Of a DNA stretch of 64,000 nt, positions 37,324-55,297 are shown one piece after another. Both the position numbers and the translations under genes were made by a program. The notes beneath the pieces were generated by a model. The model worked only from the letters and a program-made list of their open reading frames with translations. It was not told the DNA's origin and searched no databases. The number at the start of each line of letters is the position of its first letter. Positions within the stretch are counted from its first letter, which is position 1. The stretch is from an uncultured Bacilli bacterium (GTDB lineage: Bacteria; Bacillota_I; Bacilli_A; RF39; UBA660). The DNA is taken from contig CAKPBJ010000004.1 of NCBI GenBank assembly GCA_934140575.1, positions 33,274 through 97,273 of the forward strand, in the 5' to 3' direction.

Positions 37324-38157
37324 TTAACTATTGAGTCTTTCTTTAAAAGTACATGATTGGCATAATTTTTCACAAGGTTTTCTATCTTGAAATGATTTTT
37401 TTAATGATATGTATTTTTCTGAATTAATTATTTCTTCTAGGCTTTCTTTGAATATATTACCAAGATTAACTACTCCATTTGAATCAAGACAACAAGGAAC
37501 TACTGTTCCATCTACTAATATACCTATTTGAGTTTTTAAGGCATAGCAATAACCATTACTTTTATGAGTTGTTACTTCTGGCCAAGAAAACTCATTATCT
37601 TTATCCACATATATTGTGGATTTTATTTTTATGTTATTAGATGTATAAATTTTATCAACAGTTTCTTGTGGTAAATTATAATATTTTTTTATTTTATTAA
37701 CAATTTCTTGTGACTTACTATCTAATTGATTATTTTTTAAAGTCCATAAACGATATATTATAATTTTATCTTTTAATAATTCCACTTTTTTAAATATTTC
37801 TTCACAGTAATTATCAAGACTATTTTCTGAATGAAGAGAGAAATTTATTTTGCGTAGTGAGTTACATTCACTTAACTCTTTTGCTACTTTACTAAATAAT
37901 GTACCATTTGTTGTAAGGTTTACTTTTAAATTATACTTATCTGCAAGGCGTAAGAACTCTATAATATTTGGATGAAGTAATGGTTCTCCTTTAATATGAA
38001 GATATATATAGTCGGTGTAGTCTTTTATTTTTATTAAAATATTTTCAAACTCTTCTGTTGTCATAAATCTTCTTTTTCTTTTTACTTCACTGCAAAAACT
38101 GCATTTTAGATTACAATTATTGGTAATTTCTATATAAATTTTTTTGTATTTTTTCAT
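37324..38157 (-). CDS. radical SAM/SPASM-domain protein
   Basis: The N-terminal CNLKCSFC motif is a CxxxCxxC cluster, and GEPLL is present. A C-terminal Cys cluster (CCLD...CEKLCQSC) is typical of SPASM/twitch domains. Its ATG overlaps the uvrB TGA as ATGA. Confidence 0.7.
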
Positions 38158-40106
38158 AGTGTTGTCTTCATTTCAAATAAGATATCACGTAATTCCATTG
38201 CTCTTTCAAAGTCAAGGTCTTTTGCAGCTTTTCTCATTTCTGCTTCGATACTATCTATTTCTTTCATTATTTCTTTCTTAGTTCTCTTCTTCTTTGTCTT
38301 TGTATCTGCATTAGCATTATTTGTGATAATGTCTCTTATATCCTTCTTTATTGTTTGTGGAACTATACCATGTTCTTCATTATATTTTTCCTGAATTTTT
38401 CTACGTCTTGCAGTTTCAGTAATTGCTTCATTCATAGAGTCTGTTATTTTATCACCATACATTATTACGTGACCATTTGCGTTTCTTGCACATCTTCCGA
38501 TAGTTTGAATAAGACTTCTTGTACTACGTAAGAATCCTTCTTTATCAGCATCAAGTATGGCAATTAATGATACTTCTGGAATGTCTAGACCTTCTCTTAA
38601 CAAGTTGATTCCTACAAGTACGTCGTATTTTTTGGCTCTTACATCATGAATTATTTGCATTCTCTCTAATGTTTTTACTTCACTATGAAGATAAGCAACT
38701 TTTATGTCTAACTCTTTTAGGTAATTTGTTAATTCCTCTGCCATTCTAATAGTTAAGGTTGTGATTAGTACTCTTTCATCTTTTTTGATTCTTTCATTTA
38801 TCTCACCAACAAGATCATCAATTTGACCTTCAGTTTTTCTTACTTCTATTGTTGGATCTAATAATCCTGTCGGTCTAATAATTTGTTCTACATATTGATT
38901 ATTTGTATGTTCTAATTCTAAATCACCTGGTGTTGCGGAAACATATATGGCTTGATTTATCTTTTTTTCAAATTCATCATACTTTAAAGGTCTATTATCT
39001 AGGGCACTTGGAAGTCTAAATCCATAATCAACTAAATTCATTTTTCTAGCTCTGTCACCATTATACATACCTCTAACTTGTGGTAATGTAACGTGAGATT
39101 CGTCTACTACTAATAAATAATCATCTGGGAAGAAGTCCATTAATGTCGTTGGTGTTTCTCCTGGCTTTCTTCCGGCCATTGGTGCAGAATAATTCTCTAT
39201 TCCTGAACAAAATCCTGTTTCTTCTAGCATCTCTAAATCATAATTTGTTCTTTGTTCTAGACGTTCTGCAGCAAGTAATTTATTTTCATTCTTTAACACT
39301 TCCAATCTGTCTTTTAATTCAAGTTTAATTCTTTCAATTGCTGATTTTAATTTTTCATCACTTACCACGAAGTGACTTGCGGGGAAGATGCTTACATTTT
39401 TCATATTTTTTAATATTGTACCAGTTAATGTGTCTATTTCACAAATTCTATCTATTTCCTCATCAAAAAATTCTATTCTATATCCTATTGTATTTTGATT
39501 TGCTGGAATAATTTCTAATGTATCTCCTCTTACTCTGAATGTACCACGCTTAAAGTCTAAATCATTTCTTTCATACAACATTTCAACTAACTTTGTTAGA
39601 ACTTGTTCTCTTGATGTGTTTTCTCCAACACTTAGAGTTAACATTTTGTTTTTATATTCTTCTACTTCACCAATACCATAAATACATGATACTGATGATA
39701 CTACTATTACATCTCTTCTACTAATAAGGGCAGAAGTTGCGGCATGACGTAATTCATCTATTTCATCATTAATTGATGAGTCTTTTTCTATGTAAGTATC
39801 AGTTGATGGAACATATGCTTCAGGTTGATAATAATCATAATAAGATACAAAATATTCTACTCTATTTTCAGGAAATAATTCTTTTAATTCACTGTATAAC
39901 TGACCAGCAAGAGTTTTATTATGAGCAAGAACTAGAGTTGGCTTATTTGTTCTTGCGATTACATTAGCTATAGTGAAAGTTTTTCCTGTTCCAGTAGCGC
40001 CTAGTAAAACTTGTTCTTTTTTTCCTTCTTCTAATCCTTTTACTAGTTTGTTAATTGCTTGTGGTTGGTCACCTGCTGGTTCATAATGTGCGTGTAATTT
40101 AAACAT
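38154..40106 (-). CDS. uvrB: excinuclease ABC subunit B
   Basis: The helicase motifs ([13 protein letters not shown]) are present, and the C-terminal UVR domain reads [15 protein letters not shown]. The likely start is [10 protein letters not shown] at 40106, preceded by GGAGGGAGG. Confidence 0.95.
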
Positions 40107-40242
40107 TTTTTTCCTCCCTCCTTTATAACTTTCTGTGACTTTTTTTGAACTTTTAAAAGTATAACTGTCAGCCAACTATTAGTCCCTAAATTTGTCCTCA
40201 TTGCTTATAATTTAATGGTTAAATTGATACTTTTTTCTTTGG

Positions 40243-40263
40243 GACGAATGAAAGTCACAAATT
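40243..40263 (+). repeat. 21-nt direct repeat, copy 1 (gggacgaatgaaagtcacaaa)
   Basis: An exact 21-mer recurs at 47537-47557 in the same orientation, with extended similarity of about 30 nt. The two copies bracket the accessory segment. Confidence 0.8.
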
Positions 40264-40433
40264 TTATTTTCTGGACTAAATAACATTAAACAACATTAGA
40301 TGGCGTTTTCGCTATATTATTTTATCATTTTTCCCTTGAAAAAACAAGGTAATCGCAAAAATACCCTATTCTTATTATCATCTATTTTTTAATTAAAATA
40401 CTGTTAATTCATTTAAAATATTTTCATCAATAG

Positions 40434-41135
40434 AAATATCAGATTCGTCCCCAATTTGTATTTCTAATTATTGGTACCGCAATTTATGCAGCAGCATATA
40501 ATTTATTTTTCTTTAAGAATAGCATAGTATTTGGTGGTGCAAGTGGTATATCAATAATTACCCAAAAGATAATAGATCCTTCTGTTATGATACTTATCTT
40601 AAACGTATTTTTCCTGATTTTAAGTTTGTTTTTATTAGGAAAAAGAAAAAACCTAGATTCGGTTGTAGGTTCTGTTTTATTTCCACTATTTGTTAAATTT
40701 ACGGCAAATATAGGAGATTATATTCATATTTCAAACGATAATTTACTTTTAATATCAATAGTAGGCGGTGTATGCGTAGGTACTGCATCTGATATTATAT
40801 TTAAAAGTTGATTTACAACTGGTGGAACTGATATATCAAACCAAGTAGTAGCAAGATATTTTAAAGTTTCAATCGGAACTTCTATGCTAATGACTGATGG
40901 ACTTTCAGCGTTTAATGTATCGGTTGGACAAATAGTTACTAAAGATACTGTAATAGGAAAATCAGGAAATACCGGTAATTCAACAGGACCACACTTACAT
41001 TTAGGATTAGCAAATGGTAGGTGATATGCTGACTATTATTCATATTATGGAAATAATTGTTTTATAGGACATTCATTTAACCCAAGAAATATAATAGGAT
41101 TTCCGGTAAAAGGACAGAACTATTATAACAGATAA
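40434..41135 (+). pseudogene. chimeric pseudogene: YitT-family N-terminal part joined to an M23-peptidase C-terminal fragment
   Basis: The translation QIRPQFVFLIIGTAIYAAAYNLF...FTTGGTDI matches residues about 20-175 of the YitT paralogue at 55275-56153. It then continues in frame into VGQIVTKDTVIGKSGNTGNSTGPHLHLGLANG, which is M23-like (compare GYMGNTGYSFGCHLHLE at 51576-52733). In-frame stops lie at 40809 and 41022, and no start codon is present. Confidence 0.7.
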
Positions 41136-41319: not shown

Positions 41320-41847
41320 GTGAATCAAAAGGAAAAGAAAGGGTTAATAGCTTTAGTAATACTACTTGTAGTAGCTATTGGTGTTGGTTTTGCAGCATCA
41401 CAAGACGCAGTAAATATTACTGGTACTGCAAGCGCTGTTGCAACGGATTTTGATATTCAGTTTAAAACTGATGCTGAAATAACAATACAAAAAAGTGCTG
41501 GTGCTGCAATAGCTGCTTCAGGTGCTTATGGTGCTAATGGAAATGCTGATGCTACAATGACTGTTTCTGGATTAAAGAACGCTGGTGATTATGCAGAAGC
41601 AACTTATACTATCATAAACAAAAGTACTGATGTAAACGCTGACATTACAGCAAAAGTATCATCTGCTATTGAAGATGCAGATCATTATAATGTTGAAGTA
41701 ACAGGTGGTGCAAATGGTGTTGCTCCAGATGCAACAACTACTGTAACAGTTAAAGTTACACTAATCAAAGCTTTTGCTGATGATACAGCTGCAAAGACAG
41801 CAAAATCATTCAAAATTACAGCAACTGGTGTAGCAGCTGAAAAATAA
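41320..41847 (+). CDS. small secreted protein with SipW-cognate-type signal peptide (TasA/BsaA-like matrix-fibre subunit candidate)
   Basis: The 175-aa ORF uses a GTG start after AAAGGAGG. It has a K-rich N-region, an h-region, then FAASQDAVNITGTASAV. The mature part is Ala/Thr/Gly/Val-rich and acidic. Confidence 0.55.
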   Translation: MNQKEKKGLIALVILLVVAIGVGFAASQDAVNITGTASAVATDFDIQFKTDAEITIQKSAGAAIAASGAYGANGNADATMTVSGLKNAGDYAEATYTIINKSTDVNADITAKVSSAIEDADHYNVEVTGGANGVAPDATTTVTVKVTLIKAFADDTAAKTAKSFKITATGVAAEK

Positions 41848-41882
41848 TATTTGAAAGAAATTAATTAAGGAGGAGGTATATC

Positions 41883-43007
41883 GTGGCTAAAAGAAGAGAT
41901 TCGGCTTATATATACTTTGCATTTGTAATAGTATTTCTTCTCCTTAATCTTCTTGTGCTAAATATTAGTGCAAAATTACAATTGTTACCCATATTTATAA
42001 TTATATTTTTGTTAAGTTTTATCTTCTTCAAATTTAGAAAAGACAAAACTTATGCAAGAATTCGGGTAACTATTACAATGTTACTTATAGGAATTGTACA
42101 AATAGTTTTATATCTTTTAACCGGCTTTTTAGAGGGTTTTTCTAAGAATGCTATTAGTATGAGTTTTAACCGTTTTTTAACCGTTATTTTACCTATTATA
42201 TTAATATTAGTAGTTATTGAATTATTAAGATATATGATATCAGTAAAATTCGAAAAAAACAATTTAATAAGAATACTTAGTATTACTATGTTTGTACTAT
42301 TTGATGTGACTTTATTTGGCTCAAATGTGATTTTTAATAGTTTGGATTCTGTATTAGAATTTTTAGGAATAACGTTTTTTCCTAGTCTGGTAAGTAATAT
42401 TGTGTTTGATGATATGGTAGTTAAATATGGATATAAACCAATACTTGTTTATAGATTATTAACAACGTTATGTTATTACATGTTGCCTATCGTTCCTAAT
42501 ATGTATATTTTATTTAGGGCAATTGCAAGAATAGTTATTCCTCTTATTTTTTACTTCATATTATCTTATATGTATGATAGGGTAACGTTTCAAGAAGCAT
42601 TAAAGGTAAAGCCTAATATAAGTATTTCATCAATAATTATACTTATATTAGTAATTATTATGGCAGGTTTAATATCTTGCGAATTTAGATATGGTATTTT
42701 AACAATTGGAAGTGGTTCTATGACTGGAACTTTAAACAAAGGAGATATTGCTTTTGTCGAAAAATTTAATGGTCAGGAGTTAGAAATAGGTGACATTATT
42801 ATATTTAAACGAGGCAAAAGAAATATAGTCCATAGAATCACACAAGTTGGCATATTCAATGATGAATACGTTTATATAACAAAAGGAGATAAAAATAAAG
42901 TAGAAGATAATGGGTATGTTTATCAAAAGGATATTCAAGGTATAGTTCACTATAGGATAAAATATATTGGATACCCATCTATTTGGATAAGAAATTTATT
43001 TAATTAA
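41883..43007 (+). CDS. SipW-type (archaeal/ER-type) signal peptidase I fused to an N-terminal 8-TM domain
   Basis: The C-terminal roughly 110 aa read GSGSMTGTLNKGDIAFV...IVHRITQV...ITKGDKN, with the Ser and His of the SipW/Sec11-type catalytic dyad. The N-terminal roughly 250 aa contain 8 predicted TM helices and no His. The start is GTG after GGAGGAGG. Confidence 0.6.
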   Translation: MAKRRDSAYIYFAFVIVFLLLNLLVLNISAKLQLLPIFIIIFLLSFIFFKFRKDKTYARIRVTITMLLIGIVQIVLYLLTGFLEGFSKNAISMSFNRFLTVILPIILILVVIELLRYMISVKFEKNNLIRILSITMFVLFDVTLFGSNVIFNSLDSVLEFLGITFFPSLVSNIVFDDMVVKYGYKPILVYRLLTTLCYYMLPIVPNMYILFRAIARIVIPLIFYFILSYMYDRVTFQEALKVKPNISISSIIILILVIIMAGLISCEFRYGILTIGSGSMTGTLNKGDIAFVEKFNGQELEIGDIIIFKRGKRNIVHRITQVGIFNDEYVYITKGDKNKVEDNGYVYQKDIQGIVHYRIKYIGYPSIWIRNLFN

Positions 43008-43038
43008 TGTAATTAAAATTTAAAAAGGAGGTAAAGTT

Positions 43039-44133
43039 ATGGACAGAAAACAAATAAACAAAGTTATGCAAGCAACAAAAAAAAGAACTAGAACTATTGC
43101 TATTTTGATATTTGTTGTAATAGCTGTTTTACTTGCAGCTATAAGCATAATTTTTATCTCTATAAATAGTGAGAAGAATTACTACATTCATTATGATGAA
43201 AAAAGTGATTTAGATTATAAGGTATATTTAAAAGAAAATGATTATTTTGGAAGATACCTAGGTAAAAACAATCAATATATTGCAAGCCTAATTGATTATG
43301 TGGAGGCAGATTTTAATTATAAATTATCAATCGATGAGAAAATTGATTATTCATATTATTATTACGTAGAAGCAACTGTTCAGGTTTTAGATACTAATGA
43401 TAAACCATTATATAAAAAGGTTGATAAAGTAGTTGAAAAACAATATTTCAAGGATCCTATTAATCATGCTTTTGAAATAGATCAAACTGTTAATTTGGAT
43501 TATAATTACTATAATAATATAGTAAATACGTTTATTAAGAGATATAACTTATCAAATGTTAAAAGTAATGTCACTTTAAGTATGTATGTTGGAATTGAAG
43601 GGGAATGTAAAAAATTTGATTCTTCTTTAGCAGACAACGCAGTTATTAGTATGAACGTCCCATTAACAACAAACACTGTTAATATTGACATGAATTATAA
43701 ATTAAATAATTCTACAAACAAGTTATTAAAATGTAGAGAAGAATCAGTATTAAATAATAAATTACTTATTTTAGGCATAGTTTTATTATTCATTGATTTA
43801 GGTGTTTTCGTAGGAACTATTAGATATTCAAAAAGAACTAGAAGCACTTTAACTATATATAATAAAAAACTAAAAAGTATTTTTAATAATTATGGTCAAT
43901 ATATATCTAAGATTAAAACGGAGTTTAAATATGAAAAATTTCAAATTGTATTAGTTGAAGAGTTTGAGGATTTATTTGAGGTAAGAAATTCAAGTAATTC
44001 ACCTATATTATTTTGTCAGGATGAAACAAAAACAAGAAGTGCCTTTGTTGTTCCAACAAATTCTGGACTAGTGTACATCTATTATTATTCAATTAGTAAT
44101 GTGATTGAGCAAGGATGCAAACATGAAAGTTAA
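43039..44133 (+). CDS. bitopic (2-TM) membrane protein of unknown function
   Basis: The 364-aa ORF has a TM helix near residues 20-42 and a second near 243-262, with a Tyr/Asp-rich extracytoplasmic domain between them. It overlaps the next gene. Confidence 0.5.
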   Translation: MDRKQINKVMQATKKRTRTIAILIFVVIAVLLAAISIIFISINSEKNYYIHYDEKSDLDYKVYLKENDYFGRYLGKNNQYIASLIDYVEADFNYKLSIDEKIDYSYYYYVEATVQVLDTNDKPLYKKVDKVVEKQYFKDPINHAFEIDQTVNLDYNYYNNIVNTFIKRYNLSNVKSNVTLSMYVGIEGECKKFDSSLADNAVISMNVPLTTNTVNIDMNYKLNNSTNKLLKCREESVLNNKLLILGIVLLFIDLGVFVGTIRYSKRTRSTLTIYNKKLKSIFNNYGQYISKIKTEFKYEKFQIVLVEEFEDLFEVRNSSNSPILFCQDETKTRSAFVVPTNSGLVYIYYYSISNVIEQGCKHES

Positions 44134-46492
44134 AGATAAATTTTTAAAGGCACGAAAAAAATATAGTGATAGTAAGAAGTGGGCAATTTTTCTTATATTA
44201 ACTATATTTTTATTGAATATAGGTTACGCAGCTTCAAAGGCCTCGCTTGAAATAAATGGTAGTGCGAGTGCTGTAAAAGTACCAGAATTATTTATCGAAG
44301 AAGTAAAAATAATTGACATAAACGGATGTTCACAAAATGAACTTCCCATAACAAATGGAACTACTTTGGATACTAATATAAATTTTCCTTCTAATGAATA
44401 TTCATATATAACATATCAGGTAACTATTGCAAATGGTACGGATTCTATTCAAAAGTATACAGGAGAAACTTATAATAGCGTTACATCAACTAAAAATGTT
44501 ATTAATTATGAACTTACGGATGGTCTTTCTTCCGGTGAGTATTTGTTTCCTGGGAATAGTGCAACATATACGTTAACTTATAAGTATAGAAACGGTGCAA
44601 GTACAGGTAATTATGATTTGAAAATGAACTTTAATTTTGAAGATTCCGGTAAGTTTTCTGCACTTTCATATACAAATAGTGTTGATTTAACTAATAAAAC
44701 TAAGGAAGCCGTAAAAATTAAGGTAATGAATAATGGAGATTCTGCAATCAATTATAATCTCAACATAGATAATACTAAATTTGAACTAACTGATATTAAT
44801 GGAAATTTTTTAAGTTCTCTTTCTATAAAAGCTCATACTGAAGAAGAAATAACTGTTTATATATCCAAAAAGCCAGATGTTACATATTACAAAACAGAAT
44901 ATGAAACAAACTTTAGTTTAAGTTATAATGATATTACACTAGATTTTGGAAAAATAAAAATAAAAACAAATACAACAAGTGGCTATGTTGATACAACACC
45001 TCCTCAAATAGGGGCAGTATCAGTTGATATCGTATATGAAGTCGGATCAATTGATGTTACTTGGTCTAATTTAGATAATAAAAATGAGGCTCCAGTAACT
45101 AATTATGTTGTTTTACTTTATAATGATTCGGGAACTCTTGTTACAACCGGAAACACTGGTAATTCAGATACCACCTATAGATTTAAAAATCAAGCACAAG
45201 GAAATTATTATGCTGTAGTTTATGGTATAGACGAAGCTGAAAATTCAGGAGAAACTTATGTTTCAGTTTCTTCAACATCAACAACCAATGCAAGAAAATC
45301 TGTTACAAAAGAAATGAGATGGAAAAGAACAATAACATATAATGTTACAAATATTAATGTTACAGGACCTAATGAGGCTAATTTAGGTGAGTCATTTACA
45401 GCTACATTAAAACCGAATAATAACTATAAATATAATTCTGTTCCTTCAGTTACGTCAGACGGTAAAACTTTTAAAGATTATTCAACGGATGCTAATAAAT
45501 ATACTATAACAATAAATCAGGTGACAGGTGATTTAGTTATTAATGCAACAGCAGCAAGAAATGCTTGCCTTGCTAAAGGAACAAAAATATTACTTGCAAA
45601 TGGCAAATATAAGAACATAGAAAATATTAGATATGATGATTTACTAATGGTATATAATCATGAAAATGGTACATTTACTCCTGAATATCCTATTTGGATT
45701 GAAAAAGGTAATTTGTCTAGTAATTATCAAGTAATAACATTTAGTGATGGTACTTCTTTAACAACGATTGATAAACATTCTTTATTTAGTGTTGATGATA
45801 ATAGATATGTTGATGTAACAGATGAAAATACATTTCACGTTGGAACTAACATATTAAAAACAGTAAAATCTAAGAGAGGTTACAAGCTCAAAAGTGTTTC
45901 TGTAACTAATATAGAAAAGGTAAATAAATCGATTGATTATTATGACGTTGTATCAACAAGATACTATGATATAATTGCAAACGATGTATTAACATCAGAT
46001 GGAAGAACAGGACTAGTTAATTTTTATGAATTTAAGGAAAATGCTGTTTGGTCTTCAAGAAGACAAGAAGTTATAAAGAATAATACATTCTTAAACTATG
46101 AAGATTATAAATTTATTCCGTATTACTTGTTCCATGGCTTAAGAGCACAAGATGGAGCGGTTATAATTAAGTATAATTATATGACTAAAGAAGAATTTGA
46201 ATCTGTGTTTACCGATTTATTATTAAATAAAGAAATGGTATTAGATCCAATAACTAAAAACAAAAAAAGATATTGGATGGTAACAACATCAGATGATAAA
46301 GTAACAAGTAAAAATAAAGGAAAATATTTACTGAAAGAAAATAGTTATTATACGTTAGAAAAACCTAAGAAAACGAAAGATTTCAAAGGTTGGTATAATA
46401 CTGGCGATGGGAAAATTTATAAACCTGGTAGTAAGGTAAAGATATATCATGGTACACATTTTGTTGCATCATATAAAAAAATTAGCTCATAA
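44123..46492 (+). CDS. large secreted multidomain protein (SipW-cognate-type signal, FN3-like, Hint/intein-like domain, C-terminal Flg_new-like repeat)
   Basis: The start is taken at ATG 44123, with AAGGA 6 nt upstream. The signal ends NIGYAASKASLEINGSASAV, which parallels gene 41320. An FN3-like segment is present (DVTWSNL...YRFKNQAQGNYYAVVYGIDEAENSG). The Hint N-terminus reads CLAKGTKILLANGKYKNIENIRYDDLL and the Hint C-terminal block reads YYDIIANDVLTSDG. The C-terminus, FKGWYNTGDGKIYKPGSKVKIYHGTHFVASYK, resembles a Listeria-Bacteroides repeat. Confidence 0.6.
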   Translation: MKVKDKFLKARKKYSDSKKWAIFLILTIFLLNIGYAASKASLEINGSASAVKVPELFIEEVKIIDINGCSQNELPITNGTTLDTNINFPSNEYSYITYQVTIANGTDSIQKYTGETYNSVTSTKNVINYELTDGLSSGEYLFPGNSATYTLTYKYRNGASTGNYDLKMNFNFEDSGKFSALSYTNSVDLTNKTKEAVKIKVMNNGDSAINYNLNIDNTKFELTDINGNFLSSLSIKAHTEEEITVYISKKPDVTYYKTEYETNFSLSYNDITLDFGKIKIKTNTTSGYVDTTPPQIGAVSVDIVYEVGSIDVTWSNLDNKNEAPVTNYVVLLYNDSGTLVTTGNTGNSDTTYRFKNQAQGNYYAVVYGIDEAENSGETYVSVSSTSTTNARKSVTKEMRWKRTITYNVTNINVTGPNEANLGESFTATLKPNNNYKYNSVPSVTSDGKTFKDYSTDANKYTITINQVTGDLVINATAARNACLAKGTKILLANGKYKNIENIRYDDLLMVYNHENGTFTPEYPIWIEKGNLSSNYQVITFSDGTSLTTIDKHSLFSVDDNRYVDVTDENTFHVGTNILKTVKSKRGYKLKSVSVTNIEKVNKSIDYYDVVSTRYYDIIANDVLTSDGRTGLVNFYEFKENAVWSSRRQEVIKNNTFLNYEDYKFIPYYLFHGLRAQDGAVIIKYNYMTKEEFESVFTDLLLNKEMVLDPITKNKKRYWMVTTSDDKVTSKNKGKYLLKENSYYTLEKPKKTKDFKGWYNTGDGKIYKPGSKVKIYHGTHFVASYKKISS

Positions 46493-46513
46493 CTACATGA
46501 GCTAATTTTTTTT
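46481..46513. terminator. bidirectional rho-independent terminator
   Basis: ATTAGCTCAT aacta CATGAGCTAAT forms a 10-bp stem followed by TTTTTTTT on the plus strand and an A-run before it. It overlaps the stop of gene 44123-46492. Confidence 0.75.
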
Positions 46514-46531
46514 ATAGATCAAATAGAAAAA

Positions 46532-46885
46532 TTATTCTTTAATTATATATTTTATTACTTCTTCTATGCTTTTCTTTGTTCCATTAGTATTGTAATATAT
46601 TAAAACAGTATCAATAGCAAGTTGTAGCATATTAAAATATATTGTAATCTCACGCTCTTTAGCAGTGTCTTTATATTCATTAATATATTTTTCAAATATC
46701 TTTTTATCTTCATTTGAAAGTGGTTTTATTTCAAAATTATATTTCTTTTCTTTTTTTGCAAATTCAGGAATTATTATTTCTTCTTTTGTATCTTCTATTA
46801 CATTTTTTTGTTCTTCTTTTTGTTTTTTAATATCACTTATTTTGACTTTAAGGTGGTCATTTGCAGAATTCTCTTTTACTTTCAT
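46532..46885 (-). CDS. hypothetical K/E-rich protein with predicted C-terminal ribbon-helix-helix-like segment (ParG/omega-like?)
   Basis: The 117-aa ORF has a C-terminus (REITIYFNMLQLAIDTVLIYYNTNGTKKSIEEVIKYIIKE) with a beta-alpha-alpha pattern. It lies immediately downstream of the ParA fragment, in the same frame, separated by one stop codon. Confidence 0.35.
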   Translation of the reverse strand: MKVKENSANDHLKVKISDIKKQKEEQKNVIEDTKEEIIIPEFAKKEKKYNFEIKPLSNEDKKIFEKYINEYKDTAKEREITIYFNMLQLAIDTVLIYYNTNGTKKSIEEVIKYIIKE

Positions 46886-46900
46886 TTCTGATACTATCTG

Positions 46901-47206
46901 TTATACTCTCTCCATTGCTATCTCTTGAATATTCATTAAGTGCTCATTAGTAGTGTTGTGTATAGAGATTTCTTTCTCTCTTTCAAATACTTTAACCTCA
47001 TCATTGCGTGTTTGTCCTCTACTTAAATCTTCTTCATTATACCAACCTGCATAAGTTGTTAGGTTACTTTGTGGATCAACATCTACAATTAAAACTTTTT
47101 TACATTGCTTTGCTAATGCTACTCCAAGATTAAAAGTTGTTGTTGTTTTACCAACTCCCTCTTTTTGGTTTGTAATAGCAATTACCTTACACCTACTTTC
47201 TTGCAT
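46901..47206 (-). pseudogene. ParA/Soj-family partition ATPase, N-terminal fragment (truncated)
   Basis: The 101-aa ORF has the deviant Walker A ([23 protein letters not shown]...[10 protein letters not shown]) but ends after about 100 aa, whereas full ParA proteins are about 200-260 aa. Confidence 0.6.
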
Positions 47207-47300
47207 ATATTCTCCTCCTTTCTTTTTAATTTAGCCACCATACAATTAAATAGAGTGGCTATGTATGGGTACAAAAAAAAACTGACTATTTCTAATCAGT

Positions 47301-47453
47301 TCAAATATATTTATTTAATTTTAATATAAGTTCATCAACAGGTTCTGTGTATCTGCCATGTTCTAATATTTTATTTCTAAATTCATTTAAAGCATTTAAT
47401 ACTATTTTTATTTCATTATTATAAGTCGGTAGTTTAATTTTTTTCTTTATCAT
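47301..47453 (-). CDS. small hypothetical protein (50 aa)
   Basis: This ORF is not in the ORF track. GGGAG lies 10 nt upstream of the ATG at 47453. The translation is MIKKKIKLPTYNNEIKIVLNALNEFRNKILEHGRYTEPVDELILKLNKYI, ending at TGA. Confidence 0.3.
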   Translation of the reverse strand: MIKKKIKLPTYNNEIKIVLNALNEFRNKILEHGRYTEPVDELILKLNKYI

Positions 47454-47536
47454 AATAATCAAACTCCCATTTGTTATTTATATTATATCAATATAATAAT
47501 ATTAAGTTAATTGTGCAATTATTATTGGGGACGAAT

Positions 47537-47557
47537 TGGGACGAATGAAAGTCACAA
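47537..47557 (+). repeat. 21-nt direct repeat, copy 2 (gggacgaatgaaagtcacaaa)
   Basis: This is identical to 40243-40263. It is preceded by a partial tandem copy (gggacgaatt). Confidence 0.8.
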
Positions 47558-47644
47558 AATCTATTTTAACATTCAGTATTATCTAGTCCATTTCGTTTTA
47601 TTTAGTCCTATTTTTGTGGATTTATCAACACTAGATAACATAGG

Positions 47645-47928
47645 AAAAGTGCTAACATCATAATAAGATACAAAATATTCTACTCTATTTTCAGGAAATA
47701 ATTCTTTTAATTCACTGTATAACTGGCCAGCAAGAGTCTTATTATGAGCAAGAACTAGAGTTGGCTTATTTGTTCTTGCAATTACATTAGCTATAGTGAA
47801 AGTTTTTCCTGTTCCAGTAGTGCCTAGTAAAACTTGTTTTTTCCTTCTTCTAATCCCTTTACTAGTTCGTTAATTGCCTGTGGTTAATCTCCATTTGGTT
47901 TATATTTTGAAACAAGTTTAAACATAAA
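47645..47928 (-). pseudogene. duplicated, decayed copy of the uvrB 5' end (codons 1 to about 93)
   Basis: The segment aligns to 39832-40106 (the real uvrB 5' end) and covers the start codon. Identity is about 96-97 percent over the first roughly 190 nt, then a 5-nt deletion, and the last roughly 40 nt are heavily diverged. The deletion breaks the frame. Confidence 0.8.
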
Positions 47929-48014
47929 TTACTTCTTTTTTTATTTATTTGTATTTTATCATTTTATATACATCAAAACAAGGAAACTATTTTTAGTTTC
48001 CTATATATTTTTTA

Positions 48015-51575: not shown

Positions 51576-52733
51576 TTAACGTGGAACATACTTAAATGGA
51601 TTAATTATATGTCTTATATATGTATAATATGATGAATTATAGTTCCATCCATAATCTTCTGACATTTCTAGATGTAGGTGGCAACCAAATGAATATCCTG
51701 TATTTCCCATGTATCCTATTACTTGTCCTACGCTTACATCTTGGCCTGAACTTACTGCATAACCATTCAAATGAGCATATTGTGAGAATACTAATCTACC
51801 ATTTACATTATGGACTATTATAATCATCTTTGCTCCATAATTGTCTAATGTGTTTCCTACATAATAAACTCTACCTGATGCTACGGCTTTGATTGGTGCA
51901 TTGCATGCTTTTCCAATATCTACACCTTTGTGTCCTCTATTTCCATAACTTTGTGAAATATGACCTCCACTTACTGGGAAAGTAAATCCATTTGCAGCAA
52001 TTACATCTCCAGCACTTGTACTTCCACCAGGTTTAACTGCTGGCTTTGGTTTATCACAATCAATACCAATTCTATCGCTTGATTTACATCCTTTATTCTT
52101 ATAATATGTAACTCTTGCTTGAGCAGTCTTTAAGTCATTTTCAATATTTGGTATTGTTCCTTCTATACTTTTATTATCAGCTTCTATTTTTTTCTGTTCA
52201 GCTTCTTGTTCTGATTGAAGTTTTTTTAATTCTTCTTTCTTAGCTTTTAATTCTATTTGACTTTTCTTATTTTTCTCAACTAAAGCATTTAATTCCTTCA
52301 TGATTTTATCATTGTAATCTGTTAGTTGTTCTACAACAGACATACGATAAATCATATCTGTTATTGAACTTGCTCCAAAGATATATTCTAAATAAGAATT
52401 ATTTCCATTTGATATTTGATAATACTCAACTAATTTCTTTGATTCTGCAGTTTTCTTTTTTATCTTTGCATTAGAGTCATCAATTTCTTTTTGTAGTCTT
52501 TCTTGTTCTTCTTGATTTTTTTGTATTTGACTTTGATAACTTTTTATCTTTGCTTGAACACTGGCTATTGTTTCATTATTTTTTGCAAGTTGAGCTTTTT
52601 TATCATTTATTTGTGATTGATATTTAGCAACTTCATTTTCATATTCTTGTAATGTTACAGCTTTTGTATTTATTGGTAGTGCTGCAATAGATACTATAAT
52701 TATAGCTGTTAGTAATACTTCTTTTATTTTCAT
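51576..52733 (-). CDS. M23-family peptidoglycan endopeptidase with N-terminal coiled coil (PcsB/EnvC-like FtsEX partner)
   Basis: The 385-aa ORF has a signal peptide, a long coiled-coil region, and a C-terminal M23 motif (GNTGYSFGCHLHLE). It is directly downstream of ftsX. Confidence 0.8.
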   Translation of the reverse strand: MKIKEVLLTAIIIVSIAALPINTKAVTLQEYENEVAKYQSQINDKKAQLAKNNETIASVQAKIKSYQSQIQKNQEEQERLQKEIDDSNAKIKKKTAESKKLVEYYQISNGNNSYLEYIFGASSITDMIYRMSVVEQLTDYNDKIMKELNALVEKNKKSQIELKAKKEELKKLQSEQEAEQKKIEADNKSIEGTIPNIENDLKTAQARVTYYKNKGCKSSDRIGIDCDKPKPAVKPGGSTSAGDVIAANGFTFPVSGGHISQSYGNRGHKGVDIGKACNAPIKAVASGRVYYVGNTLDNYGAKMIIIVHNVNGRLVFSQYAHLNGYAVSSGQDVSVGQVIGYMGNTGYSFGCHLHLEMSEDYGWNYNSSYYTYIRHIINPFKYVPR

Positions 52734-53632
52734 TATATCTTTAAGTATTTCCTTACAGCACTTGCACTACCTATCATACCTACTATTACTCCAATTACTA
52801 TTACAATTAGTGATGTAGAATAAATAAATGGTTCAGGTTTAATTAATTTAATTAACTCTGAGAATAAGTATCCATTAAAATGTTCATAGAATGCTAAATA
52901 GCCATATGTTGTTATTAATACTGGTACAATAGAACCAAATAGTCCTAAAATCATACCTTCTATGATAAATGGAATCTTTATTGATAAGTTACTAGCTCCT
53001 ACAACACGCATTATTTCTATTTCTCTATGTCTTGCTGAAATAGTTAACTTAATTGTATTAATAATTAAGAATATAGTTACTAAAATTAGAGCAATCACTA
53101 TTCCATAAGTTACTTTTTGTATTGATGAGAATGCTGTTATCATTTTATCAACATATCCTTCACCATATCTTACAACTGAAACATTATCCATATTTTTTAT
53201 TGTATTTGCTGTTTTTTTAATTTTAGTGATGTCTTTTACTTTAACTTGGAATGTATCTTTTAGTGGGGATTCATTTTCGTCCCATCCATCTAATACTGTT
53301 TTAAAGACATCTGATTCTTTTTGCATTTGTTCTTTTACTTCAACCTTAGATTGATATGTATATTTTTCAACATTTGATAATTTTTTTATTTCTTTTTCTG
53401 TAGTTTTTACATCTTCTTCATCTGCATTATTATTTAAAAATACTACTATTGTCATGTCTCGCTCTATTTCTTTTGTAAAGTTTTCTACATTGAACGATGC
53501 AATAATGGCAATGGCAACTATTATTAGTGTGATTGTAATACAGGAAATTGATGCTAGGGATAAACTAAAGTTTCTTATTACACTTTTGAAAGCATCCCTT
53601 ATGCTTCTTCCTAACATTCTAAACAACTTCAT
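52733..53632 (-). CDS. ftsX: cell-division ABC transporter permease FtsX
   Basis: The 299-aa ORF has 4 TM helices and a large extracytoplasmic loop. It overlaps ftsE. Confidence 0.8.
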   Translation of the reverse strand: MKLFRMLGRSIRDAFKSVIRNFSLSLASISCITITLIIVAIAIIASFNVENFTKEIERDMTIVVFLNNNADEEDVKTTEKEIKKLSNVEKYTYQSKVEVKEQMQKESDVFKTVLDGWDENESPLKDTFQVKVKDITKIKKTANTIKNMDNVSVVRYGEGYVDKMITAFSSIQKVTYGIVIALILVTIFLIINTIKLTISARHREIEIMRVVGASNLSIKIPFIIEGMILGLFGSIVPVLITTYGYLAFYEHFNGYLFSELIKLIKPEPFIYSTSLIVIVIGVIVGMIGSASAVRKYLKI

Positions 53633-54317
53633 CGCTATAAGTTCCTTTCTGTTTATAATGTACTAAATGACCATCTTTTAAAGTGATAACTTGTTTTTTC
53701 ATCTTGTTTACTATGTCTTTATCATGAGTTGCCATTATAATTGTTGTCCCTCTATTTTTATTGATGTCATCTAATACTTTCATTATTTCCATACTTTTTT
53801 CTGGATCTAGGTTTCCTGTAGGTTCATCACATAATAATAATTTAGGATTATTTACTATTGCTCTTGCGATTGCGACACGTTGTTGTTCTCCTCCTGATAA
53901 TTGGTCAGGGTAATTATGAACTTTATTTTTTAATCCAACATCTTCTAATGCTTTTAGAACTTTTTTTCTAATTATTTCTTTTTTCTCACCAATGCATTCT
54001 AATGCAAACGCTACATTTTCATAGACTGTTAGTTTTGGTAGTAGTCTATAATCTTGAAAAACTATTCCTAGTTTTCTTCTAAGTTTATAGACTTTTTTAT
54101 TTCTTAGTTTTGCAACATCAAGACCACCTACTACTACTTGACCTTTTGTCGGTCTTTCCTCTCTATATAACATTTTTATCAATGTTGACTTTCCACTTCC
54201 TGAGCCTCCAATTATGAAGACAAAAGAACCTTTTTCTATTGCTAAGTTTAAATCGTAGATGGCTGTTACTCCGTTTTTATATTTTTTTTCTACATTTTTA
54301 ATTCGAATTAAATCCAT
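53619..54317 (-). CDS. ftsE: cell-division ABC transporter ATP-binding protein FtsE
   Basis: The Walker A (GGSGSGKST), the LSGGEQQRVAIARA signature and the Walker B (LLCDEPTGNLD) are all present. Confidence 0.9.
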   Translation of the reverse strand: MDLIRIKNVEKKYKNGVTAIYDLNLAIEKGSFVFIIGGSGSGKSTLIKMLYREERPTKGQVVVGGLDVAKLRNKKVYKLRRKLGIVFQDYRLLPKLTVYENVAFALECIGEKKEIIRKKVLKALEDVGLKNKVHNYPDQLSGGEQQRVAIARAIVNNPKLLLCDEPTGNLDPEKSMEIMKVLDDINKNRGTTIIMATHDKDIVNKMKKQVITLKDGHLVHYKQKGTYSDEVV

Positions 54318-54415
54318 CTATATTATCACCACCTTAGTTATTTCATTATATCATAATTTTTTGTATAAAAAAAGAAAGGCTCTCTTTAGCCTTTAGCTTT
54401 TAATTTTACTTTACG

Positions 54416-55297
54416 TTATTTTGCACCTTCTACTGTATAAGAATCTGTTACTACAAAGAATGCATCTTTATCAATTTCTTTTATTCCTTCTGTTACTCTA
54501 TAATACTCTCTTGATGGAATAACTGTTAATATTACTTTTCTGTTTTTATCTAAAAAGCCACCTTTTACTTCAAATGTTGTTACATTGTGATTTAGTGTTT
54601 TTATGATATATTCTTTTACTTTTTTTTCTTCTTCTGTAATGATATAGAATGCTTTATTATTAGATATTCCTAGTAGGACTTTATCTAATACTATACTATT
54701 TATATATAAAAATATAATTGCATATAAGGCATTAGTTATTCCAAAGAAATATGCTCCTACTATAACTATTGCAATGTTAATTGCAAGTGATGATTTACCA
54801 ACTGGTATTTGTTTTTCTTCAAAAAGAATTTGACTTATTACTGGAAATCCTCCATTGCTATAACCTGTTTTATACATTAATCCATTTGCAATTCCACTTA
54901 ATACTCCCGCAAATAATACCATTAATAACATATCAGTATTTGATTGTGATATTAATGCTGTTAAGGGTGACGTTAATTGTACTAATAATGGATATACTAC
55001 ACTTGCAACAAGTGTTCCTGCTGTTCTTTTAGGTCCTAAGTACATAAAACTTAATATTGCACAAGCTATGGATAATAATAAAAGCATTATTGCCGGATTA
55101 ATTCCGTATAAATAATGGGTAATTGTTGCGACACCATTTGTTCCACCTGTTACTAGACTTAAAGGTAAAAGAAATACATTATAAAGAATTGCAGTTACTA
55201 GTAGTGATGCTCCCATTAATAAAATTCTATATAACTTTTTCTTTTTTCTAATTACTTCTAATATATTTTCCATACTACTCTCCTCCAAATACTTCAT
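54416..55297 (-). CDS. YitT-family membrane protein (DUF161 plus DUF2179)
   Basis: The 293-aa polytopic membrane protein is a paralogue of the upstream gene. Confidence 0.7.
   Translation of the reverse strand: MKYLEESSMENILEVIRKKKKLYRILLMGASLLVTAILYNVFLLPLSLVTGGTNGVATITHYLYGINPAIMLLLLSIACAILSFMYLGPKRTAGTLVASVVYPLLVQLTSPLTALISQSNTDMLLMVLFAGVLSGIANGLMYKTGYSNGGFPVISQILFEEKQIPVGKSSLAINIAIVIVGAYFFGITNALYAIIFLYINSIVLDKVLLGISNNKAFYIITEEEKKVKEYIIKTLNHNVTTFEVKGGFLDKNRKVILTVIPSREYYRVTEGIKEIDKDAFFVVTDSYTVEGAK

What the first reader, a model, noticed from the sequence alone, without database searches (positions are those of the whole stretch)
40238..40272. Exact 21-nt direct repeat (gggacgaatgaaagtcacaaa) just inside both ends of the accessory segment
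The 21-mer at 40243-40263 recurs exactly at 47537-47557 in the same orientation, with similar flanks (tttgggacg...t.tatttt). The second copy is preceded by a partial tandem copy (gggacgaat tgggacgaat).

The two copies lie 137 nt and about 90 nt inside the uvrB-fragment repeats. They could be att-core remnants, iteron-like replication or partition sites, or a binding site for an element-encoded protein.

The inverse 9-mer tgtgacttt also occurs at 40131-40139, in the uvrB promoter and RBS region.
Basis: seen in the sequence. Interest (0 to 1): 0.5.

Follow-up and report, generated by a model that had tools for sequence, protein, structure and literature searches.

The report
Arm repeats of decayed uvrB-integrating element
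The repeated 21-base sequence is the best-conserved part of the two end regions of a mobile DNA element that inserts into the DNA-repair gene uvrB in many gut bacteria; this copy has lost its integrase genes, so the repeats are probably leftover docking sites for the proteins that once cut the element in and out.

Summary
The repeat is real. An exact 23-mer, TTGGGACGAATGAAAGTCACAAA, lies at 40239-40261 and 47536-47558, and nothing like it is expected by chance. It is not an att core, an iteron or a partition site.

The 7.6-kb segment is an integrase-less remnant of a widespread family of integrative elements. In intact relatives two tandem tyrosine integrases (Int2-Int1) sit next to this sequence. 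These elements insert at uvrB codon 88-91 and bring a replacement promoter region and 5' end for uvrB. Only the last 23 codons of Int1 survive here (40396-40464).

The 21-mer joins two motifs: a K box (TTTGTGAC on the uvrB strand) and a G box (ATTCGTCCC). Both occur in both att arms of relatives.
- In 13 of 13 independent junctions, the K box lies 102-136 nt (mostly 108 or 117-118) from the crossover, whatever gene follows.
- The variable part of the G box changes in step in every copy within an element.

The best reading is accessory (arm-type) sites for the recombination proteins, now relics in this genome (about 0.55). The main rival is a structured RNA or single-stranded DNA element formed by the nested inverted copies (about 0.25). 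No binding was tested.

This is an ordinary kind of feature in an apparently undescribed element family.

The parts
38154..40106 (-). Restored, intact uvrB (650 aa). Its 5' 273 nt (39834-40106) is the att-side repeat. Nt 1-~53 are of element type and nt ~54-273 match the displaced native fragment.
39834..39842 (-). Inferred crossover (core) region on the uvrB side: TATTATGAT, codons YYD 89-91. Element-borne and host uvrB sequences part here in relatives.
   Evidence: L020, L024 and L027 are identical up to TATTATGA, then diverge
40133..40144 (-). K' box: AAAAAGTCACAG on the uvrB strand. This is the inverted partner of the K box, upstream of the uvrB ribosome-binding site.
40178..40198 (-). Two degenerate G boxes in the opposite orientation to the 21-mer's G box. 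They read AGGACAAAT and GGGACTAAT on the uvrB strand. The equivalents are intact (GGGGACGAAT twice) in L018, L021 and L028.
40239..40261 (+). Copy A of the repeat (23 nt exact). G box 40241-40249, K box 40250-40261. It reads TTTGTGACTTTC-ATTCGTCCC on the uvrB strand.
40273..40301 (-). T boxes: about 10-nt periodic repeats, TAATGTTGTT TAATGTTATT TAGTCC on the uvrB strand. They are conserved in both arms of relatives.
40333..40349 (.). Hairpin CCCTTG-AAAAA-CAAGG just after the integrase stop codon. It is conserved in relatives.
40393..40464 (-). Remnant of the Int1 integrase gene: its last 23 codons plus the stop, 100% identical to residues 411-433 of the 433-aa integrase of L020. It contains the inverted GGGACGAAT (40443-40451, within codons I-G-D-E-S).
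40465..41024 (+). Foreign pseudogene fragments fused to the integrase stump: YitT' (to 40811; 40% identical to the native YitT) and a peptidase M23' fragment (40884-41024; 51%).
41320..46492 (+). Cargo operon: a 175-aa secreted protein, a SipW-like signal peptidase, a DUF5305 protein, and a 795-aa protein with a weak Hint-domain match.
46532..47462 (-). First operon at the B end: a 53-aa gene, a truncated ParA (101 aa) and a 117-aa gene. Relatives L013 and L016 have full ParA and ParB here.
47482..47510 (-). Sigma-70-like promoter (TTAACT-17-TATAAT, 10 of 12 matches) for that operon, just downstream of copy B.
47526..47558 (+). Copy B of the repeat plus the extra G box. G boxes 47528-47536 and 47538-47546, K box 47547-47558.
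47559..47656 (-). The rest of the B arm, between copy B and the crossover. It holds inverted T-like boxes (47570-47608), a K'-like TCCACAAAAA (47611-47620) and T boxes (47625-47644). It is one 10-nt unit shorter than in L013 and L016.
47657..47925 (-). Displaced native uvrB 5' fragment (codons 1-91). It is now a pseudogene, with a stop at codon 14 and a 4-nt deletion.
47926..48014 (-). Native uvrB leader and promoter region. It has no K or G box.

Best explanation
The 21-mer is the conserved K-box plus G-box module of the two att arms (attL and attR) of a site-specific integrative element that targets uvrB.

How the family works. Intact members encode two tandem tyrosine integrases; Int1 carries an N-terminal arm-binding domain. 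They also encode a small HTH_17 excisionase-like protein, a sigma-70-region-4-like protein and an HTH_3 regulator. They recombine at uvrB codon 88-91. They carry their own uvrB promoter region plus codons 1-91, so the gene stays intact after insertion while the native 5' end is left behind as a fragment.

Proposed mechanism (inferred, not shown). The K/G boxes, and the neighbouring 10-nt-periodic T boxes, are accessory arm-type sites. The arm-binding domain of Int1, perhaps with Int2 or the excisionase, binds them and bridges each arm to the core. This assembles the integration and excision complexes and marks the element's ends.

State in this window. The element has lost both integrases; only 23 codons of Int1 remain, fused to foreign pseudogene fragments. 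The two copies are therefore relic sites. At most they could still be used in trans by a related element.
For: Context
- Next to the same 21-mer in L020 and L024 lie two tyrosine integrases (433 and 398 aa). The first has Phage_integrase, SAM_3 and a borderline Arm-DNA-bind_4 match (22.1 bits against a 22.3 cut-off). PF14657 is recorded for many of its homologues.
- The window keeps Int1 residues 411-433 at 100% identity.
- In 68 of 84 loci fetched by integrase homology, Int2-Int1 sits about 300-800 nt (mostly 300-450) upstream of uvrB on the same strand. This holds down to 54% Int1 identity.

Crossover
- The element-borne uvrB sequence is identical in three different hosts up to nt 273 and diverges after it.
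- Displaced fragments end at codon 88 or 91 in many species.

Position
- In 13 of 13 independent fragment/element junctions, the K box lies 102-136 nt past the junction: 108 five times, 117-118 five times, then 102, 107 and 136. It is 98 nt in the window, whose B arm is about one 10-nt unit shorter than in L013 and L016. The downstream gene does not matter.
- The motifs sit in both arms and essentially nowhere else. In L027, 5 of 6 near-matches in 20 kb are in the arm. In the window, 4 of 4 are.

Co-evolution
- The variable part of the G box changes in step in all copies of an element, including copies in the same orientation and, in close relatives, the copy inside the int coding region. The variants seen are CCC/GGG, ATTGTCCC/GGGGACAAT, AAC/GTT, GTAA/TTAC and GTCG/CGAC.

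Established knowledge
- Arm-binding domains of mobile-element tyrosine recombinases recognise accessory arm sites near the recombination site (PMC8138268).
Against: - No binding or recombination was tested.
- It is unknown which protein binds which box. The T boxes, not the K/G boxes, could be the true Int arm sites.
- On the integrase side the boxes are about 300-430 nt from the inferred crossover, because 273 nt of uvrB coding sequence lies in between. That is far for arm-type sites.
- The nested order K, G(inverted), G, G, K' and the strong predicted folding in most relatives fit a single-stranded structure equally well.
- In this species the boxes are polymorphic. One G box is missing in L009 and L010, and there are point changes in L003 and L010. 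This fits relics, not working sites.
- The Arm-DNA-bind_4 hit of the L020 integrase falls just below Pfam's cut-off.
Confidence: 0.55

Rival explanations
1. The boxes are halves of helices in a structured single strand. This could be an RNA leader of the element-borne uvrB, or a transcript that crosses the att joint. It could also be folded single-stranded DNA made during transfer. K pairs with K' next to the ribosome-binding site, and the inverted G box pairs with one of two G boxes. The structure would control expression of uvrB or of the element's genes, or priming or processing of the transferred strand.
For: - The order K, G(inverted), G, G, K' is properly nested.
- K/K' and the G pairs carry compensating changes between element classes: GACTTT/AAAGTC, GACCT/AGGTC, GACCTAA/TTAGGTC, plus the G-box variants.
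- The K-to-K' segments fold with z-scores of -3.9 to -5.3 in 9 of 11 classes.
- In L019 and L022, K' overlaps GGAGG and the pairs there are G-U wobbles.
- Several classes have a class-specific inner hairpin in the spacer.
- No sigma-70 promoter was found in the window's A arm.
Against: - Copy B has no downstream partner, and the box order in that arm is not nested.
- Copies in the same orientation, which cannot pair with each other, also change in step.
- The fixed distance of the K box from the crossover in the B arm, regardless of the downstream gene, points to recombination geometry.
- Non-Watson-Crick pairs show no consistent strand bias: mostly G-U in K:K', but A-C and other types in the G pairs.
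- RNAalifold recovers only the invariant K:K' stem.
- The window's own arm folds no better than shuffles (z = -1.55).
- No Rfam family matches.
- Inverted protein sites give the same covariation.
Confidence: 0.25
2. The boxes are operators for an element-encoded transcription regulator, such as the HTH_3 repressor or the sigma-70-region-4-like protein. It would control the outward-facing promoter of the restored uvrB at one end and the promoter of the first operon at the other end.
For: - Copy B lies about 30 nt upstream of a good sigma-70-like promoter.
- The G boxes of the A arm sit where a -35 element would be, ahead of the conserved block TGGCTGATAGTAATCAT.
- An HTH_3 gene and a sigma-like gene are conserved in intact elements.
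Against: - The boxes are absent from the promoter regions of the regulatory and integrase genes in the 8-10 kb of element interior examined.
- The spacing is fixed to the crossover, not to the downstream gene start, and those genes differ between elements.
- No canonical promoter was detected in the A arm.
Confidence: 0.1
3. The repeats are centromere-like partition sites or replication iterons, serving the 53-aa / ParA / 117-aa operon of a former plasmid.
For: - Copy B has two G boxes spaced 10 nt apart, immediately upstream of a ParA-type operon.
- Relatives L013 and L016 have full ParA and ParB there.
Against: - The same arm precedes a YhcG nuclease, AbiEi/AbiEii or small unrelated ORFs in other elements.
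- Copy A lies next to the integrase and uvrB, not next to par genes.
- There are only one or two units per site.
- No similar DNA or 117-aa protein was found in 72,556 plasmid records.
Confidence: 0.03
4. The repeats are att-core remnants or a target-site duplication of a smaller element nested inside the uvrB repeats.
For: They are direct repeats in the same orientation near both ends, 7297 nt apart.
Against: - The host/element boundary maps to uvrB codon 88-91 in every relative, not to the 21-mer.
- The native leader has no copy that could have been a target.
- An inverted K' and further G boxes exist, which a duplication would not create.
Confidence: 0.02

Closest known systems
Arm-type sites of phage lambda and Tn916-type tyrosine integrases (P/P' arm sites; the subterminal direct repeats of Tn916)
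   Same: - Short repeated sequences lie in both arms of the attachment site, at set distances from the core, in direct and inverted orientation.
- They accompany an integrase with an N-terminal arm-binding domain and a small excisionase-like protein.
- They are specific to each element lineage.
- From memory, the lambda arm consensus (C/A)AGTCACTAT even resembles the K box AAGTCACAAA. I treat this as coincidence.
   Different: - No binding has been shown here.
- There are two integrases instead of one.
- On one side, 273 nt of uvrB coding sequence separates the boxes from the core.
- The site is composite (K plus G box), with T boxes alongside.
- The window's copy lacks the integrases.
Cis-mobilisable elements and tandem accretion of integrative elements (the ICESt1/ICESt3-type model in streptococci; from memory)
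   Same: - A segment is flanked by att sites but lacks its own recombinase.
- Relatives show tandem arrays of such segments, separated by repeated target-gene fragments (L019, L021, L083, L110).
   Different: - The target is the 5' part of uvrB, not the 3' end of a gene or tRNA.
- Mobilisation in trans was not tested.
- No element-free or excised form was seen for this species.
Tn916-family regulation and recombination module
   Same: Intact relatives carry, in the same order, an HTH_3 gene on the opposite strand, a sigma-70-region-4-like gene, a small ORF, an HTH_17 (Xis-like) gene and an integrase with an arm-binding domain.
   Different: - Insertion is site-specific into uvrB, not into AT-rich targets.
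- A second tyrosine recombinase is always present.
- No conjugation genes were seen in the stretches examined.
- The nearest solved structures are only generic integrase domains.
Integron attC sites (folded single-stranded recombination sites)
   Same: Nested inverted boxes whose sequence varies but whose complementarity is kept; there are arrays of cassettes without a recombinase next to one that has it.
   Different: - The crossover here lies in uvrB coding sequence, 100-400 nt from the boxes.
- The integrases are of the arm-binding type, not IntI (far below the cut-offs).
- This is a resemblance only.
Repeat-type centromeres bound by small ribbon-helix-helix proteins (omega of pSM19035; ParG/parH)
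   Same: Short tandem repeats lie upstream of a ParA operon that begins with a very small gene.
   Different: The association with par genes does not hold across relatives. There are only 1-2 units.

Membership tests
Att arms of a tyrosine-integrase integrative element (arm-type or accessory sites) | The segment is bounded by direct repeats of the target sequence (attL/attR), with the target gene restored. | tested here: met
   The uvrB 5' 273 nt is repeated at 39834-40106 and 47657-47925. uvrB is intact. The same junction is found in many species.
Att arms of a tyrosine-integrase integrative element (arm-type or accessory sites) | A tyrosine integrase with an arm-binding domain is encoded next to one arm. 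| tested here: inconclusive
   Met in relatives: L020, L024, L027-L110. In the window only codons 411-433 of Int1 remain. The arm-binding Pfam hit of the L020 protein is 22.1 bits against a 22.3 cut-off, but PF14657 is on record for many homologues.
Att arms of a tyrosine-integrase integrative element (arm-type or accessory sites) | The repeated motif is present in both arms, at a conserved distance from the crossover, across the family. | tested here: met
   The K box lies 102-136 nt from the junction in 13 of 13 B arms. K, K' and G boxes are present in all 13 A-arm classes.
Att arms of a tyrosine-integrase integrative element (arm-type or accessory sites) | The motif is bound by the integrase N-terminal domain or the excisionase, and is needed for recombination. 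| not testable with these tools
   This needs gel-shift or footprinting assays and recombination assays.
Cis-mobilisable (recombinase-less) element | Both att sites are kept and no recombinase gene lies inside. | tested here: met
   Both arms and both uvrB repeats are present. There is no integrase ORF between them, only a 23-codon stump.
Cis-mobilisable (recombinase-less) element | The element is excised or moved in trans by a related element's integrase. | not tested
   No empty site or alternative junction was found among 23 contigs. The rest of the genome was not available.
Partition site or iteron array | The repeats are consistently linked to par or rep genes across related elements. | tested here: not met
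   The same arm precedes a YhcG nuclease, AbiEi/AbiEii and small unrelated ORFs.
Partition site or iteron array | Several (typically three or more) regularly spaced units. | tested here: not met
   There are one or two G boxes per site.
Att core or target-site duplication | The repeat abuts the host/element boundary and occurs once in the empty target. | tested here: not met
   The boundary is at uvrB codon 88-91. The native leader has no copy.
Described RNA families (Rfam 15) | A match at or near a family's gathering score. | tested here: not met
   The only hit was a spurious mir-753 match, 27.6 bits against a gathering score of 62, at 46472-46516.
Dispersed genomic repeat | Many copies in unrelated contexts. 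| tested here: not met
   There are 2 copies in the window. There are 14 stretches in 185,579 species genomes, one copy each, and uvrB or a uvrB fragment was detected in every one of these loci. There are none in the viral contigs.

The most novel reading that the evidence does not exclude
uvrB may act as an integron-like platform in gut Firmicutes. One double-integrase element would recruit and shuffle arrays of integrase-less cassettes, many carrying defence genes. Each cassette is bounded by a uvrB 5' fragment plus the K/G/T-box arms.

The boxes could also be more than passive protein sites. The B-arm module (K, G, G) is complementary, in the right order, to the A-arm module (G, G, K'). The two arms are therefore joined only in the excised circle or in a tandem array. 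A strand spanning the joint could then switch pairing partners and report excision or accretion to gene expression.
Probability: 0.12. Interest if true: 0.7.

Novelty: new member of a known kind. Interest (0 to 1): 0.4.

Why it matters
It turns an unexplained repeat into a delimited, decayed mobile element. It also exposes a large and, as far as I could find, undescribed family of integrative elements in human-gut Firmicutes.

These elements always insert into the 5' part of uvrB and replace its promoter and first 88-91 codons. They encode a conserved pair of tyrosine recombinases. They carry variable cargo: BREX, AbiE, toxin-antitoxin genes and secreted-protein operons. They also pile up in tandem.

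Knowing the conserved arm boxes and the crossover point gives a practical signature. It can be used to delimit such islands in metagenome-assembled genomes and to explain assembly breaks at uvrB. Because the elements supply the promoter of a core DNA-repair gene, they may also change how the host regulates nucleotide excision repair.

Tried and rejected
- **Plasmid or phage origin.** The whole segment against PLSDB gave no match. The 117-aa protein against plasmids gave no match. The 21-mer against IMG/VR gave no match. The integrase against IMG/VR gave one distant hit.
- **Remnant of a native YitT gene.** I considered that the inverted GGGACGAAT at 40443 belonged to the YitT pseudogene (codons IRP). 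I rejected this once the opposite strand proved to be the 3' end of the integrase gene at 100% identity.
- **LexA, CtsR or CIRCE operators upstream of uvrB.** By eye, none of these consensus sequences fits.
- **Invertible promoter** flanked by the copies at 40241 and 40443. No alternative orientation appears in any contig, and the right arm is coding sequence of int.
- **Crossover at about nt 85 of uvrB.** The 80% / 96% identity step and one search suggested this. I rejected it because relatives share element-borne sequence up to nt 273. The step in the window is best explained by later gene conversion with the displaced fragment.
- **A third helix** (CTATTAACCA / TGGTTGATAG) is supported only in the L018/L019/L022 subgroup.
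- **RNAalifold** on a MAFFT alignment recovered only the K:K' stem.
- **Wobble-pair strand bias** was inconsistent between helices.
- **Literature.** Searches for any uvrB-targeting integrative element found nothing relevant.
- **Named families.** NCBIfam gave only generic Xer or integron-integrase similarity, far below the cut-offs.

Full report
**Observation.** The 21-mer GGGACGAATGAAAGTCACAAA occurs exactly twice in the 64-kb window, both on the + strand, at 40241-40261 and 47538-47558. None is expected in shuffled sequence. The exact match is 23 nt (40239-40261 / 47536-47558) and runs on to 32 nt at 94%. Its first half, GGGACGAAT, occurs four times, all here: 40241 (+), 40443 (-), 47528 (+) and 47538 (+), against 0.05 expected. 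Its second half, AAAGTCACAAA, occurs only in the two copies. An inverted core, TGTGACTTT, lies at 40134-40142.

**Surroundings.** uvrB runs on the minus strand (38154-40106) and is intact. A second copy of its first 273 nt lies at 47657-47925. That copy has a 191-nt stretch at 96% and an 89-nt stretch at 80%, with a 4-nt indel, and it carries a stop at codon 14. Between the two uvrB copies lie:
- two foreign pseudogene fragments (YitT', M23');
- a SipW-type secreted-protein operon;
- on the minus strand, a 53-aa gene, a truncated ParA and a 117-aa gene.

No integrase ORF is present. The same arrangement is found in all human-gut metagenome contigs that carry identical UvrB, 117-aa or R2K proteins. 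No element-free allele was seen among 23 contigs.

**The 21-mer elsewhere.** A scan of one genome per species (185,579 species) found the exact 21-mer in 14 stretches from different uncultured gut 'Bacilli', 'Tenericutes' and Clostridia-labelled genomes, one copy each. uvrB, or a uvrB fragment, was detected in every one of these loci. The stretches fall into two contexts:
- **A type**, about 130 nt upstream of a uvrB start;
- **B type**, about 100 nt beyond a displaced uvrB fragment that ends at codon ~91.

The cargo next to the B type differs between genomes: ParA/ParB with the 53-aa gene, a YhcG nuclease, AbiEi/AbiEii, or small ORFs. The motif is therefore neither dispersed nor tied to the par genes.

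**What the segment is.** In L020 and L024, two tandem tyrosine integrases lie immediately beside the A-type 21-mer, on the uvrB strand. The first (433 aa) has catalytic, SAM-like and borderline arm-binding-domain matches. The second has 398 aa. The minus strand of window 40396-40464 encodes the last 23 residues of that first integrase at 100% identity. The window's segment is therefore an integrase-less remnant. The inverted GGGACGAAT at 40443 lies in int codons I-G-D-E-S.

The integrase has 960 homologues at E < 1e-20. In 68 of 84 loci fetched through it, the pair Int2-Int1 lies about 300-800 nt (mostly 300-450) upstream of uvrB. This holds down to 54% integrase identity and in hosts whose UvrB is only ~60% identical to the window's. 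Upstream of the integrases lie an HTH_3 gene on the other strand, a sigma-70-region-4-like gene, a small ORF and an HTH_17 (excisionase-like) or PemK gene. This layout recalls the Tn916 regulation and recombination module (from memory). Tandem arrays of such elements, most of them without integrases, occur in L019, L021, L083 and L110.

**Crossover point.** L020, L024, L027 and L014 come from different hosts. They share identical sequence from the arm through uvrB nt 273 (…TATTATGA) and diverge directly after it. The element therefore carries the uvrB leader plus codons 1-91, and recombines at about codon 91. In the Lachnospiraceae-type subfamily the point is codon 88.

In the window, only nt 1-~53 of the restored gene are of element type. 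Nt ~54-273 match the displaced native fragment at 96%. I attribute this to later gene conversion between the two repeats. The native leader upstream of the displaced fragment (47926-48014) has none of the boxes, so the boxes belong to the element.

**Anatomy of the arms (uvrB strand).**
- **A arm:** int stop, a hairpin, 10-nt-periodic T boxes (TAGTGTTATT-like), the K box (TTTGTGAC…) joined to an inverted G box (ATTCGTnnn), about 45 nt, one or two G boxes (nnnACGAAT), a conserved block TGGCTGATAGTAATCAT, K' (AAAGTCACAAA), the ribosome-binding site, then ATG.
- **B arm:** crossover, T boxes, inverted T-like boxes, then the K box; in the window's subfamily two inverted G boxes follow.

**Two regularities.**
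1. The K core is kept throughout the family. In 13 of 13 independent B junctions it starts 102-136 nt after the junction: 108 five times, 117-118 five times, then 102, 107 and 136. This holds whatever gene follows. In the window the distance is 98 nt, and the window's B arm is about one 10-nt unit shorter than in L013 and L016. The main values differ by about one helical turn.
2. The variable part of the G box differs between element classes but is the same in every copy within an element. The variants are CCC/GGG, ATTGTCCC/GGGGACAAT, AAC/GTT, GTAA/TTAC and GTCG/CGAC. Copies in the same orientation follow the rule too, and so does the copy inside the int coding region in close relatives. K and K' co-vary as well.

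Outside the arms the motifs are essentially absent.

**Interpretation.** It is well supported that the 21-mer is the conserved module of both att arms of a uvrB-specific integrative element family, and that the copy in this window is a remnant. I put this at about 0.9.

What the module does is inferred. I favour accessory arm-type sites for the recombination proteins (0.55), for four reasons:
- the distance to the crossover is fixed and phased;
- the module is present in both arms, independent of cargo;
- it is confined to the arms;
- all copies change in step, beside an integrase with an arm-binding domain, whose known role is to bind such sites (PMC8138268).

Several points weigh against this reading:
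- nothing was bound or mutated;
- the A-arm boxes are 300-430 nt from the crossover;
- the T boxes could be the real Int sites;
- the boxes are polymorphic in this species, which fits relics.

**Main rival (0.25): a structured RNA or single-stranded DNA.** The A-arm boxes are nested. They co-vary. They fold well in 9 of 11 classes (z = -3.9 to -5.3). In two relatives they pair with the ribosome-binding site through G-U wobbles.

Against this rival:
- copy B has no nested partner;
- same-orientation copies also co-vary;
- mismatch types show no consistent strand bias;
- RNAalifold recovers only the invariant stem;
- the window's own arm folds no better than shuffles;
- Rfam has no match.

**Minor rivals.** An operator for an element-encoded regulator (0.1), a partition site or iteron (0.03) and an att core or target duplication (0.02) are set out with their evidence in the rivals section.

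**Novelty.** Arm repeats of an integrative element are a known kind of feature, and the window's copy is a decayed example. In the held literature I found no description of elements that target uvrB or of this double-integrase family. Curated protein libraries give the integrases only generic names. The family is interesting in its own right: it inserts in the 5' part of a core repair gene and replaces the promoter, it forms tandem cassette arrays, and it carries defence cargo. The finding itself is explained and moderately ordinary.

Noticed in passing
window 39834-40106 compared with 47657-47925 and with L020/L024/L027: The restored uvrB is a mosaic. Nt 1-~53 are of element type (identical to L027) and nt ~54-273 are 96% identical to the displaced native fragment. 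This suggests gene conversion between the two 273-nt repeats after insertion.
   Followed up: partly
window 40465-41024: Fragments of a YitT-family gene and an M23 peptidase gene are fused to the integrase stump. They are only 40% and 51% identical to the host's own YitT and PcsB-like genes (51576-56153) and lie in the opposite orientation, so they come from another genome. Those same gene types flank uvrB natively, which hints at an earlier imprecise excision or rearrangement in a previous host.
   Followed up: partly
window 41320-46492: The cargo operon encodes a 175-aa secreted protein, a 374-aa membrane protein with a C-terminal SipW-type signal peptidase domain, a DUF5305 protein, and a 795-aa protein with a weak Hint (intein-like) match at residues 488-515. 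It looks like a SipW-dependent fibre or matrix locus.
   Followed up: no
window 46472-46516: A 38-nt palindrome (84%) lies between the convergent 795-aa and 117-aa genes. It is probably a bidirectional terminator, and it produced a spurious Rfam mir-753 hit well below threshold.
   Followed up: no
window 47528-47546; L003, L009, L010, L011: The arm boxes vary between strains. One 10-nt G-box unit is missing in L009 and L010. The upstream B-arm G box reads GGAGACGAAT in L003. Copy A reads GGGACAAAT in L010. L010 and L011 have a 9-nt duplication, TAATGGTTA, in the A arm.
   Followed up: yes
L002 2178-2528 and L008 8957-9307: In some strains the displaced uvrB fragment is called as an intact 116-aa ORF with ResIII/DEAD matches. 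In the window it carries a stop and a frameshift, so the fragment is decaying at different rates in the population.
   Followed up: no
L083 (9728-14400), L110 (5548-11150), L019, L021: These loci hold tandem arrays: an integrase-bearing element, then a uvrB fragment, then one or more integrase-less cassettes. Each cassette has its own arms and uvrB fragment before the intact uvrB.
   Followed up: partly
L027 1-4812; L025 219-2655; L020 6244-6666; L036 7813-8394: The cargo of related elements is rich in defence and addiction genes: BrxL (BREX), AbiEi/AbiEii, PemK/MazF toxins, RhuM and BRO-N.
   Followed up: no
window 40300-40315 and relatives (ATAGCGAAAACGCCAT on the uvrB strand): A small conserved hairpin containing TAGCG lies between the integrase terminator hairpin and the T boxes. 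From memory, it resembles the CS-6 motif of plasmid single-strand origins. This was not tested.
   Followed up: no
window 47981-48002: A strong bidirectional terminator-like hairpin (9 pairs) follows the R2K ATP-grasp gene. It leaves only about 55 nt for the native uvrB promoter and leader.
   Followed up: no
L029 11591-13689: In this intact-element locus, uvrB itself appears split or frameshifted (residues 1-169 and 152-648 in separate pieces). This is either an assembly error or an inactivated uvrB downstream of the element.
   Followed up: no
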